A DNA stretch of 64,000 nt from Octopus vulgaris (Eukaryota). Shown here piece by piece: positions 1,703 to 62,731 of this stretch; position 1 is the stretch's first letter, and each line of letters starts with the position of its first letter. Where the stretch lies: positions 76,012,001-76,076,000 of the forward strand of contig OX597814.1 in NCBI GenBank assembly GCA_951406725.2. The letters are read 5' to 3'. The translations under genes were made by a program, and so were the position numbers. The notes below the pieces were generated by a model. That model saw only the letters and a list, made by a program, of their open reading frames with translations. It made no database searches and was not told the origin of the DNA.

Positions 1703-1933
1703 ACATCAGGTGTTTAACCTCTAAGGTGGTGAAACACCTGGTGTCCTCACTTCTAAATGGAACTGAGGGTGAGTTATTGTGCCTGTCTATAAACCTGAGG
1801 TGTTTTAACACCGGGTACTCCGAGAGTGTATATACTCCACCACGCTATTGCAGCCACCAGAAAATACATGAAGCATATACAGTAAGTATATGCAGTTAAT
1901 AATATTTATTATACTAGAGCTGCTTTATTTCAT

Positions 1934-1937
<4 letters not shown>
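1703..1937 (+). mobile_element. Putative Penelope-like terminal fragment with half hammerhead and 5' fold-back
   Basis: GAAACACCTGGTGTC (hammerhead 3' half) at 1731-1745; inverted copy at 1703-1719; ends in (TA)n. Confidence 0.45.
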
Positions 1938-5640: not shown

Positions 5641-6104
5641 GGAGGGTTTTGTATATGTGTGTGCATACATACACACACACACATGCACACACACATATAT
5701 TTAAAACTTTATGGTCTTCTTTCTGTTTCTATCCATCAAATCCTTTCAGAGTTTGTGGTTGGCCTGGCACTATAATCGTACAAGACATTGTACAGCACAG
5801 AGTGACACACAGTGTAACTGAAATTGACACCATGCAATTACACTCTTCTCAACAGCACAGTTAGTTTGTATTAACATCTTTGTTAATGCAATCAGAAAAA
5901 ATGGTATTCCATATGCAAGGTAATATATAAAGTAATAATAAGAGCAATAGAAAAACTGGGTTTTCAGCAAGTGTTTACTCTGAGTTTCATGTTTCTGCTT
6001 TTCAGAACATTTCAGGTGGAAAGTCATTTTGAAAAGCAGAAATTAAAAACTCAGAGTATATGACCATTGAAGACCTAGTTCTGCTGTTGTAACTAAAGAA
6101 GCTT

Positions 6105-12942: not shown

Positions 12943-13290
12943 TGCCATCATCACCACCAACGTTTTTGCATCTGCTTTTCTCAAGCTGGGGTAGGGTGGA
13001 CAAGACATATTGGGGCTGTGTTTTATCACAAATTGCCCCACCTGTTGCCGGTTCTCATTCGTTTTCTAAGTTGTTTCTGTTCTCTTGAATTTTGCATGAA
13101 ACCTTGAAAATTCCTGGATCATGGGACATATTGTTTACAGGAAATGTGTAAACAAATGCACCATTGTTTAAATGGTACCAATATATAAAGTCAATACAAC
13201 TTGTGCACACACCCATGCATATACTAAATTGTATATATGTATATAAATGTACACACACACACATACACACACACATATATATATATACGT

Positions 13291-13461
13291 TATTAAAAAG
13301 AGCAGATATATAACAAAAACTGTTACTCAGAGTTTCACATTTCCAGGAATGTGAAACTCTGAGTAACAGTTTTTGTGATATTTCTGCTGCTTTTGATAAA
13401 ACATATTACTCTACCTCTGGTATTTGAGTATTCTTTTTCCACTTTGTTTCACATTTATATG

Positions 13462-13463
<2 letters not shown>
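13291..13463 (+). mobile_element. Putative Penelope-like terminal fragment; palindrome 13291-13398 containing a half hammerhead
   Basis: Perfect 29-bp arms 13313-13341 / 13348-13376; GAAACTCTGAGTA motif; flanked by (TA)n. Confidence 0.55.
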
Positions 13464-13509
<46 letters not shown>

Positions 13510-13510
13510 T

Positions 13511-13875
13511 AAAAAGCACAATCCGAACGTGGCCGATGCCAACACCGCCTCGACTGGCTTCTGTGCCGGTGGCACGTAAAAAGCATCATCTGAACGTGGC
13601 CGATGCCAGCGCCGCCTGGACTGGCTTCTGTGCCGGTGGCATGTTAAAAGCACCAACCGATCATGGCCGCTGCCAGACCCCCCTGGCACCTGTGCCGGTG
13701 GCACGTAAAAGGCACCCACTACACTTGCGGAGTGGTTGGCGTTAGGAAGGGCATCCAGCTGTAGGAACACTGCCAGATCAGCCTGGTGCAGCCTCCTGGC
13801 TTCCCAGACCCCAGTCGAACTGTCCAACCCGTGCTAGCGCGGAAAACGGACGTTAAACGATGATGATGATGATGA
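13511..13875 (+). mobile_element. RTE LINE 3' UTR with (GAT)n tail
   Basis: Reverse complement of the 6771-type terminus; tail-to-tail with the next element. Confidence 0.9.
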
Positions 13876-13889
13876 TCTATATATATATA

Positions 13890-16800
13890 TCATCATCATC
13901 ATCATCATTTGACGTCCGTTTTCCATGCTAGCATGGGTTGGACGGTTCGACCGGGGTTTGGTAAGCCATGGAGGCTGCACCAGGCTCTAGTCTGATTTGG
14001 CAGTGTTTCAACAGCTGGATGCCCTTCCTAACGCCAACCACTCCATGAGTGTAGTGGGTGTTTTTTACGTGTCACTGGCACATGGGCCAGAGCAGACTGG
14101 CAAACAGCCACAATCAGTTGGTGCTTTTATGTGTCACCGACACGGATGCCAGTCGGGCAGCGCTAGTATCTGCCACATTCGGACAGTGCTTTTTACGTGT
14201 CACCGGTACGGGTGTCTTAACTACAATTTCCATTTGAATTTTTATTTTGATGCTGCTGTACTTGACTCAACAGGTCCCCTGTGAGGCTCAAAGTACGAAG
14301 GTCATGCTTGACCACCTCGCCCCATGTCTTCCTGGGTCTACCTCTACCCCAGTTTCCTTCAACAGTTTGGGAGTGGCACTTCTTCACACATCTCTCCTCA
14401 TCCATCCGTAGTACATGACCATACCAACGCAATCGTCTCTCCTGCACGCTGCATCCAATGCTTCTTATGCCCAACATTTCTCTCAGGACACTTACACTCT
14501 GTTGTGCATGGACAGTGATATTACACATCCAGTGGATCATGCTAGCTTCATTTCTTTCAAGCCTACGCATGTCCTCCGCAGTCACAGCCCATGTTTCACT
14601 GCCATGAAGCATGGCAGTTCGCACACATGCATCGTACAATCTACCTTTCACTCTGAGCAAGAGACTCTTTGTCGCCAGTAGGGGAAGAAGCTTCCTAAAC
14701 TTTGCCCAGGCTATTCTTATTCTAGTGGTAACGCTCTCTGAGCATCCACCCCTGCTACTAACTTGGTCACCTAGGTAGCAGAAACTATCAACTACTTCTA
14801 GTTTCTCCCCAAGGAGTGTAATGGAATCTGTTTTCTGAGTATCTATGGTGTCTATTGCCCCTGTGCATCTGCTGCACACGAAAGCTGTCTTCTTGGTTAA
14901 TTTTCCTTTGATATTGCTGCACCTCTTATGTGTCCATAGCTTACACTGGGTACATCTTATGGAGTTTCTACCTACACCTTTTCTACAGATCAAGCAGGGC
15001 CACCTACCTGAAGGGGTGTGTGGTGAGTTTGCCTTCCTACTTACTAGAACTTTGGTCTTTGCTACATTGACTCTAAGGCCTTTTGATTCCAAACCTAGCT
15101 TCCACACACGAAATTTCTTCTCTTGTTCCGGTAGTGATTCTGCTACGAGGGCTAGGTCATCAGCATAGAGGAGCTCCCAAGAACAGCCCATCTTAAATTC
15201 CTCTGTTATTGCTTGGAAGACTATGATGAATAGAAGGGGATTGAGGGCTGAGCCTTGGTGGATGCCAACTTCTACCCGGAATTCTTCACTGTACTCATTG
15301 CCAATCCTAACCTTACTAATAGCCTCTCTGTAGAGGGCTTGTACAGCCCTTATTAACCATTCGTCAATCTCCAGTTTCCGCATCGCCCACCAGATAAGGG
15401 ATCGGGAGACCCTGTCAAAGGCTCTCTCCAAGTCCACAAAAGCTAAGTATAGGGGTTTATCTCTGGCTAGGTATTTCTCCTGCAGTTGTCAAACCATGAA
15501 TATGGCATCAGTGGTGCTTCTGCCAGGCACAAAACCAAACTGCATCTCATCTAGGCTAACTCTCTCCCTAATTAGTTGGGCTATGGCCCTCTCCATGACC
15601 TTCATTACCTGATCCAGCAGTTTGATGCCCCTGTAGTTATTTCTATCTAGAGCATCCCCTTTACTCTTGTAGCAGTTGACTATGGTGCTGCTACGCCAGT
15701 CATTGGGTATGACTCCATCATGAACTACTTGGTTTACAATGTGGGTAACTAGGCCGTAGCCCACACCGCCAGATGTTTTAAGCATCTCAGCAGTGATTCC
15801 TGATGGGCCGGGGGCTTTTCCTGGCTTCATACCCTTAATTGCTTTAACTACTAGGGAGCTATCTATACGGATAGCTGGTCCTTCTACTGGGTCAACATTT
15901 GGCAGGCTCCCCTCCTCCAACTTATTCTCCACATTCAGCAGTCTTTTATAGTGGCTTCTCCAAGCCTCTTTCTTTTCAGAATCACAAAAAGCAAGTGCCC
16001 CATCATCCATTCGAACACATTTCTCTCCTGTGACATCACAATTTTCTCTCACACACTGTCTTGAACCTCAGTTCTTTGGTCCTCATGTCTCTGGACATTG
16101 GCAAACTTCTTTTCCACTACACTCTTGGCTATGTATATCTGCCGCCCAGCCTCCCTTCTGGCTACCTGGTACAGTTCCCTACTACCCCTCATCCTTCCAG
16201 GCTTTCCAGGCCTGTTTCTTTGCCCTAATGGCCTTGTCTACTGTACTATTACCCATCACGTAACTCTAGGTCTGGTAGGGACTTTGCACCAGCCACAGAC
16301 TTGGTCTGTGGCGCTCAGTAAGCTGTCCTTTAGGAATTTCCAGCTACCTTCTATGTCCGATGTCTGTAGCTCCTCCTCCCTCTCTTAAAATTTCTTGATG
16401 AGGATGTCCCTAAATCTCTGACCATGTGAAGGGTTCTTTAGCTTCCAAATCCTTCTTTTTAGGATTGGTTTGCTTCTTGGTATCCTTCTGGCCTCGAGGC
16501 TAAAGTCACTAATGACTAGCCTATGCTGGGGGGTACATTCTTCACCTAGGAGGGTCTTTGCATTTAAGAGCAACCCTGTGTCCCGCTGTCTGGTGAGGAT
16601 GATATCAATCTGGCTAGCAGAGTCCCCTGATTGATAGGTTATCAGGTGGCTGTCTGGCTTCCTGAAGTTAGTGTTGCAGATTAAAAGGTTACATGCACCA
16701 CAGAACTCCAGTAGCCTAGTTCCCTCATTGTTTCGAGTGCCAATACCATGGCCACCGTGTATCCCAGTGAAGATACCTGCTTCCCGCCCGACATGCCCAT

Positions 16801-17448: not shown

Positions 17449-17758
17449 GACCCTGTCAGTGCAGGTGCCACTTAAAAGCACCCAGTCCACACTGTAAAGT
17501 GGTTGGTGTTCAGAAGGGCATCCAGCTGTAAAATCCTTGCCAAAACTGACCTTGCCTGTGCTTGTGTCACGTAAAAGGCACTAAGTCCACTCTGTGGAGT
17601 GGTTGGTGTTAGGAAGGGCATCCATCTGGAAAAATCCTGCCAAAACAGTTACAGACGTTTGGTGCAGGCTTCTGCCTGACTGGCTCTTGTGAAACCGTCC
17701 CACCTATGCTAGCATGGAAGGCAGACGTTAAACAATGATGATGATGATGATGATGATC
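17449..17758 (+). mobile_element. RTE LINE 3' UTR fragment with internal duplication
   Basis: Two copies of 'gtggttggtgtt..gaagggcatcca' followed by a (GAT)n tail. Confidence 0.75.
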
Positions 17759-18329
17759 ACATATATATATTTATCATCATCGTCGTCGTCATCGTTGTTT
17801 AGCGTCTGCTTTCCATGCTGGCATGGGTTGGACAGTTTAACTGAGGATTGGCAAGCCAGTACTTATTCTATCAGTCTTGTTTGCCAAACTGCTAATTTAC
17901 AGGGACGTGCACACACCCACATTAGTTGTCAAGTGATGGTGGGGTGACAAACATAAACACACAAATATATACATACATACATTTTTACAGTGGGACTGAA
18001 ACTGAAACCATGTGGTTGGGAAGCAAATTTATTACCACACAGCCTGTCTGCATCTGTATATGTACACACGAACACACACACATATGTGTGTTTGATAGAC
18101 TTTCATACAGTTTCTATCTACCAAATATCTTAGCTCAGTCTGAGGCCATAGAAAAAGATACTTACCCAAGGTGCTAAGCAATGTAGTCTTTGCAGACACA
18201 TAGCCATTACTAAAATAACACCATCCAAAATAATGGAAAACACAAGCTAACAAGAAACTAAAACTGCTGGGAGCATGCTAGTTTGTTTATGTCATCTGTT
18301 AACATTTGTCAAGTACAGATAACGTCTAA

Positions 18330-20634: not shown

Positions 20635-20957
20635 AAATTATTGTGATCAGTTATTTTTTACACCCCCTTTTCCATGCTGATTTGGTGGGATGAGATTTCT
20701 TAAGGCTGTATTCTATGGGCCAAATGCCTTTCCTGATACTAAACCTTCAATATATTTCTTTAAAACTAAGACACTTTATCTTACATTTTGGATATTGAAA
20801 AGCAAACAGTGTCAATACAAACACAAGCAGAGACAAACACACACGAACATGCATGCATGCACATACACACATGCAAGTGTGCGTGCACACACACACATAC
20901 ACATACACACAAGCACACACACACATACACACCCACACAAACACCCACACAAACACA

Positions 20958-20989
<32 letters not shown>

Positions 20990-21108
20990 GAAGCTTCATA
21001 CAGTTTCTGTCTACCAATGCTCACAAGGTATTTGTTAATCTGAGGCCATAATAGGCCTCAGGTTAACAAATACCTTGTGAGCATTGGTAGACAGAAACTG
21101 TATGAAGC

Positions 21109-21147
<39 letters not shown>

Positions 21148-21444
21148 TGTGTGGATGTGTATGTGTATGTGTGCTTGTGTATGTGTGTGTGTGCATGCAC
21201 ACGTGCATGTGTGTATGTGCATGCATGCATGTTCGTGTGTGTTTGTCTCTGCTTGTGTTTGTATTGACACTGTTTGCTTTTCAATATCCAAAATGTAAGA
21301 TAAAGTGTCTTAGTTTTAAAGAAATATATTGAAGGTTTAGTATCAGGAAAGGCATTTGGCCCATAGAATACAGCCTTAAGAAATCTCATCCAACCAAATC
21401 AGCATGGAAAAGGGGGTGTAAAAAATAACTGATCACAATAATTT
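20635..21444. repeat. Long near-perfect palindrome (~400-bp arms, 6-nt spacer at 21048-21053)
   Basis: Mirror ORFs 20690(+) and 21389(-) begin identically (MRFLKAVFYGPNAFPDTK); arms differ mainly in the (CA)n tract. Confidence 0.97.
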
Positions 21445-36169: not shown

Positions 36170-37280
36170 AGAAAATACCTGCAGGAAAACAAATGGGGAT
36201 ATCCAGAATGAAATCATTATCTAAGAGCAAAAAGACTACATACTTGCAAATTGATGACCAAACAAAGCCACAATAGTCTTCATCCTCATATCTGATTCTC
36301 AGAAATCATATAAAAATTTTGACTTGAACCTGTCCATTATACTTATTTATCCTTAGGAACATGATTCTGGAATAGTCAATAATCACTTATTAGATAGAAT
36401 CTTCCTGAAAGTCAAGGTGTTTCTTTAGATTTTATGGAACAAAACTCTAGAAGTTAATGATTAGTTTAAATCTATACCAAATAAGAACAGCACAACATTT
36501 CTACCATTTGATATTAAGGACTGTTATATTTCTATTGACTAAATTCTACTAATCAAAGCATTTGACTATATTAGATCCACAACTCATATCACTGATCCAA
36601 AAATAGAAATAATATTACATATTTGTAAAACAATAGTCAATTATTATAACTCTATTTGGATTCACAAATACTCTAAAATCTATTTCCATGATAGAATGAA
36701 GGCAAACCACTTAAGAAACATTTCGCCATAACACAAATATTAACAAATTTTTAATCAAAATACTATTAAAACTTTCTAACTTCAAAACTTTCCTAACTTC
36801 AACCAAAACTTAGTTCTTTTAATCTCTCAAAGCTGAATAACTTAAGCACAAGTTTATCATCAAATCAATGTTATTGTACTAATGTTATATCTTACTCTTT
36901 AAACTCACATTGTTTAGCCAAAGACAAAGTTGACCAATGTACAGTAATACAAGGAGCATCTCTAAAATATTCACTGAAATTACCTCAAATCCTTTCAAAT
37001 TTAGATATAATTTCCACAGCTACACCTTTAGAAACCCCAACAAATGCACCAAAGTTTTCTGACTAGCTACAGCTGAAATTGAAAAATAAATCCGTACTTT
37101 TTACAATCTAATCTGGATGGTATCCAAAGCCAGATCCTACCAAGAATAAAAAACTGTGTGACATTTGCATAACTGAAAGTTTGATGATACTATTTGTTAA
37201 AATCCTTAAAGGACATTCTGAAAGGATTCTAACTTGTATACAAATAGATTTTAAAATAAACTTTTTCACCTGCTTAATTA
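36170..37280 (+). pseudogene. Old Penelope-like RT + GIY-YIG relic with internal deletions
   Basis: ..FKSIPNKNSTTFLPFDIKD.Y.SI..LLIKAFDY (PLE RT motif) at ~36465-36570; ..KKLCDICITESLMI at ~37150. Confidence 0.6.
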
Positions 37281-40950: not shown

Positions 40951-42979
40951 ACTTGTAATTCTGTATTTGTGTTAACTAATTTTATGTTGGTTGTAAAGGT
41001 AATATTAAAGCTACACTGATTGAATGTCCTAACTAAATATATATCATACATATCTGGTGATTTGTGTGATATGAAACTGCAAGGCCATTGTCTTTGTCCA
41101 TTCATATATTTAGAGTTTTGAATATTGTTTTTACCATATCTAGAATGTATATATATTCAACATATATATTCACTGTAGTACAGGTGCCTACATTAAATGG
41201 AGCATTGCTATTTTCATCCACTTAAACTTACTATAACTACTAATGGTGCTGTGCTTCTTTCCAAATTCCAATGCTTTGGTGAAATGAGGTTTGAAAATTA
41301 ACAGATAAAACTTGAACTCAGTTTGACATTAAGTGCAAGTTCACTCAAAGTCAGACTGAGTAAACTTGCAACTATTTTTATTCTTGAGACTATTGAATCA
41401 TTAAATTGCTGTTATTTATTTATTGAAAGCTGATGGCTTTTCTTTTTCTCTTTTTTTTTACTTTTTATTGGTGTTAATACTGTTTAGATTGTGCTTACTG
41501 ACTATACCAAGTTCATTCTTTACGCAATTTATCAACCTGTATTTGAAGTTTACTGGCAAATTTTCTTTGTGATCATTCAGAGTAATATATGGCTTTTGTT
41601 TACACTTAGTTTTCTAAATTGCAATCTAATCTAAATTGTTTTGAGCTTTGCTTCCCTCTTGATTTCATCATTGTTGATGAAATTTGTCTCTCTAAAGGTG
41701 TGTATATGTCATTTATTAAGAGGTCATTGTAGGTGTTCATATCTCATTTATACAGGTTTTATGTGCGAACGAATATACTCAGCTAGATTTCTTTATTGTT
41801 TATATGTTTTTGTTGAGTTTGTATTGGAGAATATTTCTATGTATCTCCAACCTTACCTTACAAGGCATGTCTAGAAGCTCTGCTTTGAAACTTTCAAGAT
41901 TCTAGATATACCATTGTCATTGTGATCATTATCATCATCGTTTTAACATCCACTTTTCTATGCTTGTATATGTTAGAGGGAGTTTACTAAGGTATATTTT
42001 CTACTGCTGGATGCCCTTCATGTTGCCAACCCTTACCTGTTTCCAAGCAAGATATTTTCCCATTACTTGACATGCTTTGCAGAATACTGGAAATGAATGA
42101 CACTGCTTTTATGACAGTGATGCTCATACATACAGACAGACACATACACACATATTCACACATACACACACATACATACATACACACATACATACATGCA
42201 TACATACACATGCATACATACATACAAACATGTATGCATACATACATCACTCCATCCATCCATCCATCCATACCATACATACATACATACATACATACAT
42301 ACATACATACATACATACAATGGGCTTTTTCAATTTCTGTTTCCCACATCCATTCATAAGCTTTTGGTCAATCTGGAGCTATAGTGGAAGATATTTGCCC
42401 AAGGTGCCATGCTGTAGGACTGAAGCTGAAATCATGCAGTTGGGAAGTAAACTTCTCAAGGACACAGTCATAACTGTTGGAAATTTTTGCTTTTCTAAAT
42501 CAAAAGGTGTTTGTGGTTGATGAGTTTATATTGATATTTTCTTAAAAGTTGGTTTTCCATCTCATTCTGTCGCTAACATACTCCACTTTTTCTAGTTGTT
42601 AATTCATTTGTATTTTGATTGCAGGTATTGTAATATTCTTTAGTAAATATGAGCAGGTATATTTTTCCACTATCAGCCACCTTCTTTGGTTATTTAAAGT
42701 ATTCAGCTATACCAAATCTCTATAGCACTAAGCTTGCAAATACTTATATGCACAAACCAAACAGTACTCATTGATTCTTCTAGAGTAAATGAAGATTTGC
42801 TCTTGGACAGTCTTCATCAAATAATATATTGATAAAGACATTTTTGAAAATGTCAAGGAAAGTGTTTGCTGTTCACTGCCACAAAATAGTATGTCATAAA
42901 CTCGTAGTTAGTCTTATTTATTTGCACTGTGCAGTAGATCAAGCAGGTTCTGTTTGATGGGTTTTTTGTTTATCGTAGG

Positions 42980-43912
42980 TTAGTACTTGTAGCAGAGCTA
43001 CATATTACATAGTAATATGTGAGTCCACCTGCACAGCAGATGAATATATTGATGAGGTATCTAGCTTTGCTTTAATACACTAGCCTCACTTTGATACAGT
43101 AGCCTCATTCTGAAACACTAGCCTTGTTCTGAGCTACACTGTAGAAACTTCAGTTCCTGTCGCACACAATCTCCCATATGTGACTCACATGTATTTTCAC
43201 CTCAACACAAGATATATGGTTCATAAACAAGGATATTTTATCACACACACATTCTCAAAATGACTTTTCATTACACACATGCATAAATACTGTAATACAA
43301 ATATTATATGTTACTTCTTTCAGAGCAAAAGCAAAAACCAAAACTTTCTTTGTATGTAAACACACGATTTTGTATCATACTACATGCTTCCACCACAAAA
43401 GCTGAACACAGAATAAACAATATATTTATACGCAAAATGTCTTATGGTGATTCATACCAACTGTTTTTCCATTTAATAACATGCACTTGAACAGCCAATG
43501 ACAGCCGCTATAAAATGGGATTTTTGCTTTTGCACTGAAAGGAGTAACATAATATTTGTATAACAGTATGTATTCATGTGTGTAATGAGAACAGTCATTT
43601 TGAGAATGCATGTGTGATAAAATATCTTCATTTATGAACCATATATCTTGTGTCGAGGTGAATAGATATGTGAGTTGCACGTGGGAGATTCCGCATGAAG
43701 CTGCAGAGAAGACACGTGTCTTTGACTAAAACTTGGCAGGAACTAGAGTTTCTACAGTGTAGCTCATGACAAGGCTAGTGTCTTAGAATGAGACTACTAT
43801 ATCAAAGCGAGGTTAGTATATTAAAGCGAGGCTAGATACCTCATCGATATATTCGTCTGCTGTGCAGGTCGACTCACATATTACTATGTAATATGTAGCT
43901 CTGCTACATACT
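42980..43912. mobile_element. Non-autonomous long-TIR (MITE/fold-back) DNA element
   Basis: ~350-390-bp diverged inverted arms (tgtagcagagctacatattacatagtaatatgtgagtc... and its reverse complement at ~43870-43908); ~180-bp spacer; TA flanks. Confidence 0.85.
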
Positions 43913-61459: not shown

Positions 61460-62731
61460 ATATTTCCAAATCAATCAGGTGCAACCCTTCAGTGTTATAT
61501 TCATCTACATGTCGTACTTTGCGGTCTTATTTATCGTATATTTTTATTATTTATAGATAAATATACAAAGTATCTGATAAAAGTATATATTAATTCAATT
61601 TTGTGGGGATTAATTGATATGCAGGTATTCTATTTCTAATAATACAAAAATAACCTAATGAGTATATCTTACAGTAAACTCATGGTATCAGTTTGTACCT
61701 CACGAAATAATACTTAAAGGATATAACCAAAATTACCATCAGAGTATATAATACACTTCATTAATTATATCGTACTTTAGTTAATACTTATAATTATTAA
61801 ATATGAAGGAACTACACATGTTTCAGTATTGGAAGATTACAATATATATAGATATACACAACTGTATACCCATATATATATATATATATATATACATATA
61901 TAAATACTTATATACAATCGTCAGATTTACACTCATCTTCAGGTTTTATTTCAAAATATTATAAATCTAATTTTACATCCCTTTAAAAATAAGCAATACA
62001 ATTAAGCATTAAAGATTAAAAATTAAGAATTAAAATTATACTTTGTAATATTAAGAATTAAAATTTATAAATTATACATTATAAATATGAATTAGTAAAT
62101 ATATATCAATCATGTAAAATCAAGTATATGTCAAATACAGAAAGTGAGATATAAGATTAAACATCAGAATAAAAATGTCTGTGTTTAAATGTAATATATA
62201 ACAAGAAAAATTCAAATACATATCTTCCTTTTTTTGCTGGTACTAAAATGGTGATTTGAGGAAGAAGATAACATGGAACTATAGGTGATTAGTACCAAAA
62301 TGGGTAATTACACTATACATAGTTTTAATTTTAAAGTATCCTTTATTATTATTTTCAAATTTACCTATATTGGGAGGTATATATAATTTGTTATTATATA
62401 ATTTTAGTAATATTTAATTCATATATTTATTTTATTTAAATTATTGCATTATTTTTTTATTTTTTATTTATTTAAAAAAAATTTATTTATGTAGTCTATT
62501 CAAGTGCTTTAGAAATAAAATTATGTGGTTATTTGATTCAGGAGTTGGGGGTTCAGTACTTCATTTGACTAAATGTAAAATTACTTTGGTGCTTACATTT
62601 AACAATACACTATATAAATAAATTTTTTTTGAATATATAAAAAATAAAAAAATAATGAAATAATTTAAATAAAATAAATATCTGAATTAAATATTACTAA
62701 AATTATATAATAACAAATTATATATACCTCC
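61460..62731 (-). mobile_element. Putative Penelope-like terminal region with a degenerate hammerhead and 5' fold-back
   Basis: Starts at (TA)n; minus strand reads AAC-CUGAAGA-UGAGUG...UACU-GAAAC-AUGU-GUA-GUU (61810-61945); inverted repeat 62373-62494 / 62609-62731. Confidence 0.55.

What the first reader, a model, noticed from the sequence alone, without database searches (positions are those of the whole stretch)
13291..13463. Palindrome centred on apparent hammerhead stem II: a recurrent fold-back junction
Seen: ~50-bp arms (29 bp perfect) each contain GAAAC-UCUGA-GUA-ACAGUUUUU (near-palindromic stem III, GUA triplet) and are joined through ACAUUUCCAGGAAUGU; CUGANGA is absent; (TA)n lies on both sides. 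The architecture matches 1703-1750 in an unrelated sequence. Inference: ribozyme stem II doubles as a self-priming hairpin for PLE cDNA and generates tiny palindromic insertions. Inverted PLE termini are known; I am not aware of their junctions being tied to stem II.
Basis: partly seen in the sequence, partly recalled or inferred. Interest (0 to 1): 0.72.

Follow-up and report, generated by a model that had tools for sequence, protein, structure and literature searches.

The report
Twin-primed Penelope stub, not stem-II foldback
This small DNA palindrome is an old, truncated head-to-head insertion of a Penelope-type jumping gene, one of about two thousand counted in this genome; their turning points mostly lie just in front of the hammerhead motif rather than in its stem II, and each was likely built from two separately primed DNA copies joined at a few matching bases.

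Summary
The palindrome is real (29-bp perfect arms). It is a decayed inverted stub of the 3' end (minimal type I hammerhead plus 71-nt tail) of a Hydra-clade Penelope-like element (PLE), set in (TA)n; relatives carry the full core and an RT/GIY-YIG ORF. The stem II self-priming idea fails. The window's join is a symmetric CG-centred join on stem II's 5' strand (31 loci genome-wide); the true stem II hairpin geometry occurs at 14 loci, against 398 for one join just 5' of stem I. Both ends lie in stem II in 0 of 63 and 3 of 63 loci of two samples. One arm has the tail and the other stops 71 nt earlier in 19 of 19 long and 61 of 63 short young insertions; either arm can be the longer, also at stem II joins (5:5), which one folding cDNA cannot give. 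Best reading: both target strands prime cDNA at two fixed RNA sites and the ends join by microhomology (inferred); the pile-up at -44 to -48 likely marks a short RNA's 5' end. Architecture known; mechanism not found in my searches. The scan reported this model before on other DNA.

The parts
13276..13287 (.). left (TA)n target flank (preceded by (CA)n)
13288..13345 (-). tail-less inverted arm: antisense copy of the PLE 3' end from site 2 (+36 from the predicted cleavage site) back to -22; one substitution near its outer end
   Evidence: same fixed outer end in 333 exact pattern matches genome-wide
13344..13345 (.). junction: 2-bp self-complementary word (CG in pristine copies, CA here after CpG decay) on the 5' strand of stem II, shared by both arms
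   Evidence: L032, L213; 31 loci, 22 exact
13344..13465 (+). tail-bearing sense arm: PLE 3' end from -22 to near site 1 (last about 6 nt missing)
13346..13374 (+). 3' half of the minimal type I hammerhead: loop II and 3' strand of stem II, GAAAC (13353-13357), palindromic stem III, GTA with predicted cleavage after 13365, 3' strand of stem I; core and 5' strand of stem I absent, so predicted inactive
13402..13465 (+). tail, present on one arm only (71 nt in intact copies)
13464..13499 (.). right (TA)18 target flank
1703..1719 (-). 17-nt inverted arm (15 of 17) matching 1728-1744; second, unrelated hammerhead repeat family
1725..1936 (+). 5'-truncated copy of the second hammerhead repeat family (about 333-bp tandem unit elsewhere), starting in loop II, ending in (TA)n

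Best explanation
The palindrome is a decayed 178-bp head-to-head insertion of the 3' end of a Hydra-clade Penelope-like retrotransposon, likely made when both strands of a cut in (TA)n each primed a cDNA on the element's RNA and the two cDNA ends were then joined at a 2-bp self-complementary word. Shown: family identity, ORF link, two fixed outer ends 71 nt apart (one per arm), either arm can reach further, junction microhomology, arms of one insertion share a haplotype. Inferred: the GIY-YIG domain nicks both strands; one 3'-OH primes at site 1 (tail end), the other at site 2; both cDNAs are antisense, so they can anneal only through short inverted words (CTAG/TTAA, CG, A/T runs, hammerhead stems); fill-in completes the insertion. 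Also inferred: most short stubs come from a short, uncleaved RNA that starts at -44 to -48, just 5' of hammerhead stem I; the window copy is one of the minority in which both cDNAs were joined about 22 nt short of that end. The template is probably one RNA copied twice, or two RNAs from one source locus.
For: Tail on exactly one arm: 19 of 19 long young insertions, 61 of 63 short ones, 0 with both. Tail-less arm reaches further upstream by more than 100 nt in 9 of 19, tail arm in 7, within 40 nt in 3; at stem II joins 5:5 (read by eye). 30 of 95 loci selected by the site-2 end show no partner arm within 520 nt, so site 2 is an end in its own right. Microhomology at clean joins: mean 2.3 bp in 40 of 63 against 0.94 for re-paired ends, 0 of 5000 permutations as high; 15 of 19 long insertions have no inserted bases, mean overlap 5.0 (BLAST-extended, may include mismatches) against 0.75. 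Target duplications of 12-15 bp where the microsatellite is interrupted in L242, L243, L247 and L297. Ends pile up at -46..-37 (60 of 119, 12.3 expected) and -48..-41 (60 of 126, none beyond -48). Arms share 222 substitutions, 37 differ, over 42.8 kb. In vitro, the Anolis PLE protein cuts and extends both strands and starts at two RNA sites that bound the tail (PMC11167929).
Against: No experiment; no RNA 5'-end data. Duplication is absent or short at several informative sites (e.g. L272, L278, L279, L285, L296). Shared haplotypes (42 locus-private changes in both arms) fit fold-back copying or later gene conversion equally well. 3 of 19 long insertions are nearly symmetric, more than independent ends would suggest. 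For a single symmetric locus such as the window, snap-back of one cDNA cannot be excluded. The gap limit of 60 truncates the end distribution, and the 61-90 class of the young subfamilies was not counted. The 19 long insertions were chosen for carrying the ORF's C-terminal piece on both arms, so they cannot measure hammerhead junction frequency.
Confidence: 0.72

Rival explanations
1. General self-priming: one cDNA (or an antisense template, as proposed for rotifer PLEs) folds back at any short palindrome and copies itself; the endonuclease then trims the copy at site 2.
For: Palindromic centres are common (398 CTAG-centred loci; 32 of 63 ends within 10 nt of each other); arms share private changes; proposed in PMC3846280 (passages).
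Against: The copied arm cannot hold sequence the template arm lacks, yet the tail-less arm is longer by 0.2-2.6 kb in 9 of 19 pristine insertions and the tail is never on both arms. Could still make a symmetric subset.
Confidence: 0.13
2. One reading: hammerhead stem II is the self-priming hairpin for the cDNA and generates these palindromes.
For: Joins with stem II pairing exist (14 loci, a lower bound because the pattern left out two subfamilies); the window-type join lies on a stem II strand and recurs (31 loci).
Against: About 0.7% and 1.6% of 1909 counted short junctions (patterns differ in stringency) against 25% for the CTAG join in its subfamilies (398 of 1592); no enrichment; wrong geometry at the window; 5:5 arm polarity; stem II is only 2-3 bp.
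Confidence: 0.04
3. The window's short form arose after insertion, by deletion across the centre of a longer inverted insertion.
For: Old copies show internal jumps that look like later deletions (L064, L127, L167, L169); the window copy is CpG-decayed and has lost its tail end.
Against: The identical join stands in 22 exact, partly pristine loci of several subfamilies; central deletions would be expected to break symmetry rather than create a perfect palindrome (general knowledge).
Confidence: 0.09

Closest known systems
EN+ Penelope-like element insertion with an adjacent inverted 5'-truncated copy and a one-sided 30-40-bp tail (PMC8557442 passages; Adineta Pen2a, PMC3846280 passages)
   Same: Head-to-head inverted pLTR, tail on one end only, palindromic or overlapping junction, microsatellite target, hammerhead in the terminal repeat.
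   Different: Tail is 71 nt; here junctions are counted (hotspot 5' of stem I) and argue against the self-priming explanation offered in PMC3846280.
Hydra clade of C-terminal EN+ PLEs (PMC8557442 section 11 and supplement hits)
   Same: RWK, DKT, CxCX5C, no CCHH, CxxC and CxH, (TA)n target; two published Hydra-set 3' ends carry nearly the same stem III and cleavage-site sequence.
   Different: Not the published Hydra-1_Obim family (its listed hammerhead and N-terminus differ, compared by eye); unit 3.36 kb against 'generally <3 kb'; no tree was built.
Poseidon PAc of Anolis in vitro (PMC11167929, parts 1-2 of 4 read)
   Same: Two RT start sites bounding the tail; both DNA strands cut and extended; AT-rich target; hammerhead cleavage not needed.
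   Different: Other clade; in the parts read the paper does not link the two sites to inverted insertions, and reports no start-site difference between strands, whereas here the two arms always use different sites.
LINE-1 twin priming and dual priming (PMC2837659 passages; original twin-priming paper recalled, not seen)
   Same: Both target strands prime; inverted fragments inside a target duplication; microhomology at the internal junction.
   Different: L1 twin priming gives non-overlapping fragments with an internal deletion; here both arms copy the same 3' region over up to 4.5 kb from two fixed sites, closer to the hypothetical dual priming.
Minimal type I hammerheads of metazoan PLEs (PMC4209133, parts 1-2 of 4 read)
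   Same: Type I layout, CUGANGA/GAAA/NUH core, palindromic helix III predicted to need a dimer; the paper also notes opposite-strand motif pairs 100-700 bp apart.
   Different: Stem II is only 2-3 bp with a GGAA or GCAA loop, older subfamilies mostly have C at core position 4, and the window copy lacks the core.

Membership tests
EN+ PLE, Hydra clade | Single ORF with telomerase-like RT and C-terminal GIY-YIG endonuclease | tested here: met
   727-aa ORF in young sister subfamily; YRDD at 360, GVVY..YTG at 596; model pLDDT 92.9, best Foldseek hit TERT 3du5, E 4.7e-10. GIY-YIG rests on motifs only: no Pfam or PDB sequence hit.
EN+ PLE, Hydra clade | Window-type hammerhead end belongs to this ORF | tested here: met
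   L229: ORF pieces 69-85% identical to the 727-aa protein, window-type end 1.2 kb downstream on the same strand; L166, L227, L228 link ORF end to the same 3' UTR. L090's ORF piece (34-46%) is probably another family and is not counted.
EN+ PLE, Hydra clade | RWK, DKT, CxCX5C linker, no CCHH, CxxC and CxH motifs | tested here: met
   All present or absent as defined; RWK 86, DKT 95, CxxC 103 of 103 aligned proteins. A GxKF/Y-like GNKY is present although described as not conserved in the clade.
EN+ PLE, Hydra clade | (TA)n insertion preference | tested here: met
   Flanks.
EN+ PLE, Hydra clade | Phylogenetic placement among Hydra reference families | not tested
   Reference proteins were seen only as cut supplement passages; no tree built.
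PLE inverted insertion with one-sided tail | Inverted 5'-truncated copy adjoining the 5' end, tail at one end | tested here: met
   Window; 19 of 19; 61 of 63.
Minimal type I hammerhead | CUGANGA core, stem II, GAAA, stem III, NUH, stem I in the family | tested here: met
   L249 canonical core; L026, L029 and others; long stem I in folds (z only -0.6 to -0.8).
Minimal type I hammerhead | Complete motif in the window copy | tested here: not met
   Core and 5' strand of stem I are absent in both arms.
Minimal type I hammerhead | Match to an Rfam hammerhead model | tested here: not met
   No hit in the window or in 4 loci of the family; second family L114 gave Hammerhead_HH9, E 3.6e-4, 29.7 bits, below the 52-bit threshold.
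Minimal type I hammerhead | Self-cleavage | not testable with these tools
   Needs an RNA assay.
Stem II self-priming product | Junction keeps loop II once between the two stem II strands | tested here: not met
   Window join is CG-centred and symmetric.
Stem II self-priming product | Inversion points enriched in stem II | tested here: not met
   6 of 119 ends, 12.3 expected; 20 of 126; 14 against 398 loci.
Stem II self-priming product | Tail-bearing arm always the longer | tested here: not met
   5 of 10 stem II joins; 9 of 19 long insertions.
LINE-1-type twin priming | Target-site duplication around the inverted unit | tested here: inconclusive
   12-15 bp in 4 loci, absent or short in several others, unreadable in pure (TA)n including the window.
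LINE-1-type twin priming | Non-overlapping fragments with internal deletion | tested here: not met
   Arms overlap over their whole shared length; it works like twin priming but is not the L1 form.
LINE-1-type twin priming | Microhomology at the internal junction | tested here: met
Animal non-LTR retrozyme (second family, 1725-1936) | Short tandem unit with a type I hammerhead | tested here: met
   About 333-bp period in L097, L102, L106; cores mostly decayed. Coding capacity and circular RNA not tested.

The most novel reading that the evidence does not exclude
Penelope-like elements make their hallmark inverted-plus-tail insertions by a strict two-primer rule: the two strands of one staggered cut start on the same RNA at two fixed sites 71 nt apart, never the same site, and a roughly 155-nt uncleaved RNA that begins at the front edge of the hammerhead acts as a built-in SINE-like parasite that seeds thousands of palindromes. 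This would replace the published self-priming explanation and give the tail a mechanical meaning.
Probability: 0.45. Interest if true: 0.7.

Novelty: new member of a known kind. Interest (0 to 1): 0.42.

Why it matters
The locus itself is an inert fossil, and the stem II claim does not hold. The family matters because the origin of PLE inverted repeats and one-sided tails is called unresolved in PMC8557442 and was ascribed to self-priming in PMC3846280. Here a young family with an intact 727-aa ORF and more than a thousand near-pristine junctions gives a quantitative rule (one arm per start site, either longer, microhomology join, wall at -44 to -48) that contradicts single-cDNA fold-back, ties the two in vitro start sites of PMC11167929 to genomic structure, and is directly testable.

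Tried and rejected
Rfam on the window: only sub-threshold miRNA-like hairpins and repeats, no hammerhead. Pfam found nothing on the family's ORF pieces or the 727-aa ORF (the one RVT_1 hit is a different element on the opposite strand of L090); PDB sequence search 0; homologue search with a 129-aa piece 0; 678 full-length homologues carry no informative names. My first clade guess, Neptune/Nematis (recalled), was dropped: no CX2-5CxxC or CCHH. RNA: no RNA holder listed; four runs of guessed type were contigs only and cannot show starts, ends or cleavage. Arms from different source elements: not supported, haplotypes concordant apart from single markers in L231 and L234 and differences in low-complexity stretches. 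Ends at the cleavage site: 9 of 63 partner-arm ends at -4..+8, about the uniform expectation and explicable by stem I complementarity; could not see such ends. L090 as ORF link: rejected as probably chimeric. Sequence look-up in earlier findings: nothing.

Full report
1. Observation. The sequence is as described: perfect 29-bp arms (13313-13341, 13348-13376) around six bases, an 87% inverted match over 13290-13399, DNA fold -42.3 kcal/mol, z -14.9, (TA)n on both sides, no CYGANGA core nearby. The right arm is 64 nt longer than the left. The window lies in a 2.8-Gb animal genome (G000:C1); earlier scan notes call it octopus, which I did not test.

2. Family. The right arm has 1539 first-look candidates (40 scored, 91-100% identical). 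In 30 fetched loci, 19 have an opposite-strand copy of the hammerhead end next to the match, and upstream of GAAAC lie the missing parts: 5' strand of stem I, a CYGAYGA core and a 2-3-bp stem II with a GGAA loop. With 0 the first base after GTA: stem I 5' strand -41..-31, core -30..-24, stem II and loop -23..-14, GAAAC -13..-9, site 2 at +37, site 1 (tail end) at +108. L229 carries ORF pieces 1.2 kb upstream of this end; L166, L227 and L228 link the ORF end to the same 3' UTR. A protein search (150 of 8161 candidates scored) exposed a young sister subfamily with a 3355-bp tandem unit, an intact 727-aa ORF, a canonical CTGATGA core and nearly the same tail. Its model (103-sequence alignment, pLDDT 92.9) matches TERT best, and it has RWK, DKT, CxCX5C, no CCHH, CxxC and CxH, the definition of the Hydra clade in PMC8557442 section 11. 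Two Hydra-set sequences in that paper's supplement end in nearly the same stem III and cleavage-site sequence; Hydra-1_Obim itself is another family (by eye). No Rfam hammerhead model matches this family.

3. Where are the turning points? Sample A: one search found 333 exact tail-less outer ends and listed 100; 5 were second ends of elements already counted; 95 loci were analysed, mostly of a sister subfamily. 65 had both arms, 2 duplicates were dropped. Both ends in stem II or loop: 0 of 63 (1 of 64 if L130, missed by the script because its outer end is truncated, is added). Of 119 ends in -60..+36, 6 are in stem II/loop (12.3 expected), 60 in -46..-37 (12.3 expected, p 6e-28). Sample B: all 63 junctions with gap 0-60 of the younger subfamilies on C1:1-173.7 Mb (L298 and L299 may be one duplicated insertion, kept): both ends in stem II/loop 3, stem II hairpin geometry 0, ends at -48..-41 60 of 126, none beyond -48. 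Genome-wide counts: gap classes 53, 184, 80 for the window's stem III type and 269, 1323 for the younger type; CTAG-centred join at -44, 398 exact; window-type join 31 with up to one mismatch, 22 exact, at least 2 of the other 9 being a different join; stem II hairpin geometry 14, a lower bound. The window's join is thus recurrent but minor, one of several recurrent words among the 50 listed of 53 short junctions.

4. The window junction. Undoing CpG decay, both arms end at -22 and share a CG; L213 is the undecayed twin. Stem II self-priming would instead leave the loop once between two stem II strands. The window is not that product.

5. Mechanism tests. (a) Outer ends: in 19 long young inverted insertions (all minus-then-plus pairs picked from the list; both arms had to carry the ORF's C-terminal piece) one arm ends at site 1 and the other at site 2 in 19 of 19; junctions lie from -3180 to +31, none in the hammerhead. 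In sample B the tail is on exactly one arm in 61 of 63, on neither in 2. (b) Polarity: the tail-less arm reaches further by over 100 nt in 9 of 19, the tail arm in 7, 3 are within 40 nt; in sample A 23 against 8, with 32 within 10 nt (some may be later deletions). At the 10 fetched stem II joins the tail arm is the longer in 5 (L252, L253, L257, L258, L259) and the shorter in 5 (by eye). One cDNA folding back cannot give both classes. (c) Microhomology: 40 of 63 joins have no inserted bases, mean 2.3 bp against 0.94; 15 of 19 long ones, 5.0 against 0.75. (d) Target duplication: 12-15 bp in L242, L243, L247, L297; absent or short in L272, L278, L279, L285, L296; unreadable in pure (TA)n. (e) Template: arms share 222 substitutions (42 private to the locus) and differ at 37, so they come from one RNA or one source locus; fold-back or gene conversion would give this too.

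6. Reading. Both target strands prime, one at each start site, and the two antisense cDNAs anneal through short inverted words. The wall at -44 to -48 likely marks the 5' end of a short uncleaved RNA; RT pausing or A/T-rich join bias are alternatives, and no RNA data were obtained. Confidence 0.72; general fold-back 0.13; later deletion 0.09; stem II self-priming 0.04.

7. The 1703-1750 case. It belongs to a second repeat (344 candidates, 40 scored) with a type I hammerhead layout and a roughly 333-bp tandem unit (sub-threshold HH9 hit). The window has only a 17-nt inverted arm. Of 8 distinct head-to-head junctions among 30 fetched loci, none has both ends in stem II and one has one end there (loci were ranked by likeness to the window copy). 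It gives no support for a general stem II rule.

8. Literature. Seen: PMC11167929 parts 1-2 of 4 (two start sites bounding the tail, both strands cut and extended, hammerhead not needed); PMC8557442 passages, section 11 and supplement hits; PMC3846280 passages (inverted pLTR, tail, duplication, self-priming proposal); PMC4209133 parts 1-2 of 4; PMC2837659 passages (twin and dual priming); bioRxiv 10.64898/2026.07.22.740005 part 1 of 5 (supplements closed). A two-primer account of PLE inversions did not appear in the listings of searches, but the library lacks most subscription papers and supplementary figures could not be seen. Earlier scan notes, unreviewed, reached the same model on other DNA, including this genome; my reading was stated before the first look-up, except for the Hydra clade, to which they led me.

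9. Verdict. Observation confirmed; interpretation partly supported; new member of a known kind; interest 0.42, carried by the family-level rule and not by this locus.

Noticed in passing
L249 (G000:C4:132437124-132445814) and one search list: Very young sister subfamily: 3355-bp tandem unit, intact 727-aa ORF, over 100 copies with identical scores among 150 scored; arms 98-99.9% identical. A candidate active PLE for in vitro work.
   Followed up: yes
hammerhead position -14 and loop II across subfamilies: The base before GAAAC is T, A, G or C in different subfamilies while CG-G(G/C)AA-CG is kept: stem II shrinks to 2 bp plus a GNRA-type loop in the youngest ones.
   Followed up: partly
L127, L169 (also L064, L167): The partner arm starts at the TTAA word, runs to about -25 and then jumps to the first bases of the tail; later deletion or template switch, unexplained.
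   Followed up: no
L078, L124, L129, L133, L137, L164, L170: T or A runs at the junction are longer than in the element, as if slippage occurred during joining.
   Followed up: no
L234, L243, L245: 3 of 19 long insertions have both inner ends within 40 nt deep in the ORF (L234 without clear microhomology); may mean one 5'-broken RNA copied twice.
   Followed up: partly
L089: Both arms end at site 2 (no tail): an exception to the one-arm-per-site rule in an older subfamily.
   Followed up: no
window 1725-1936: Second hammerhead repeat family with about 333-bp tandem units and its own inverted insertions; retrozyme-like.
   Followed up: partly
window 36276-36704 (+) and 41236-41589 (-): Decayed RT fragments 33-34% identical to the 727-aa protein: older PLE relics.
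   Followed up: no
window 13671-14102 and 17714-17816: Head-to-head pairs of a common SINE-like repeat around (ATG)n(TA)n(CAT)n; the SINE label is recalled, not tested.
   Followed up: no
window 20635-21444, 42988-43908, 62373-62731: Long inverted repeats (333 bp 95%, 172 bp 91%, 128 bp 95%); a loose hammerhead scan found no convincing core in them.
   Followed up: partly
window 5975-6060: Weak, decayed match to the younger-type stem III on both strands about 60 bp apart; possibly an old inverted stub.
   Followed up: no
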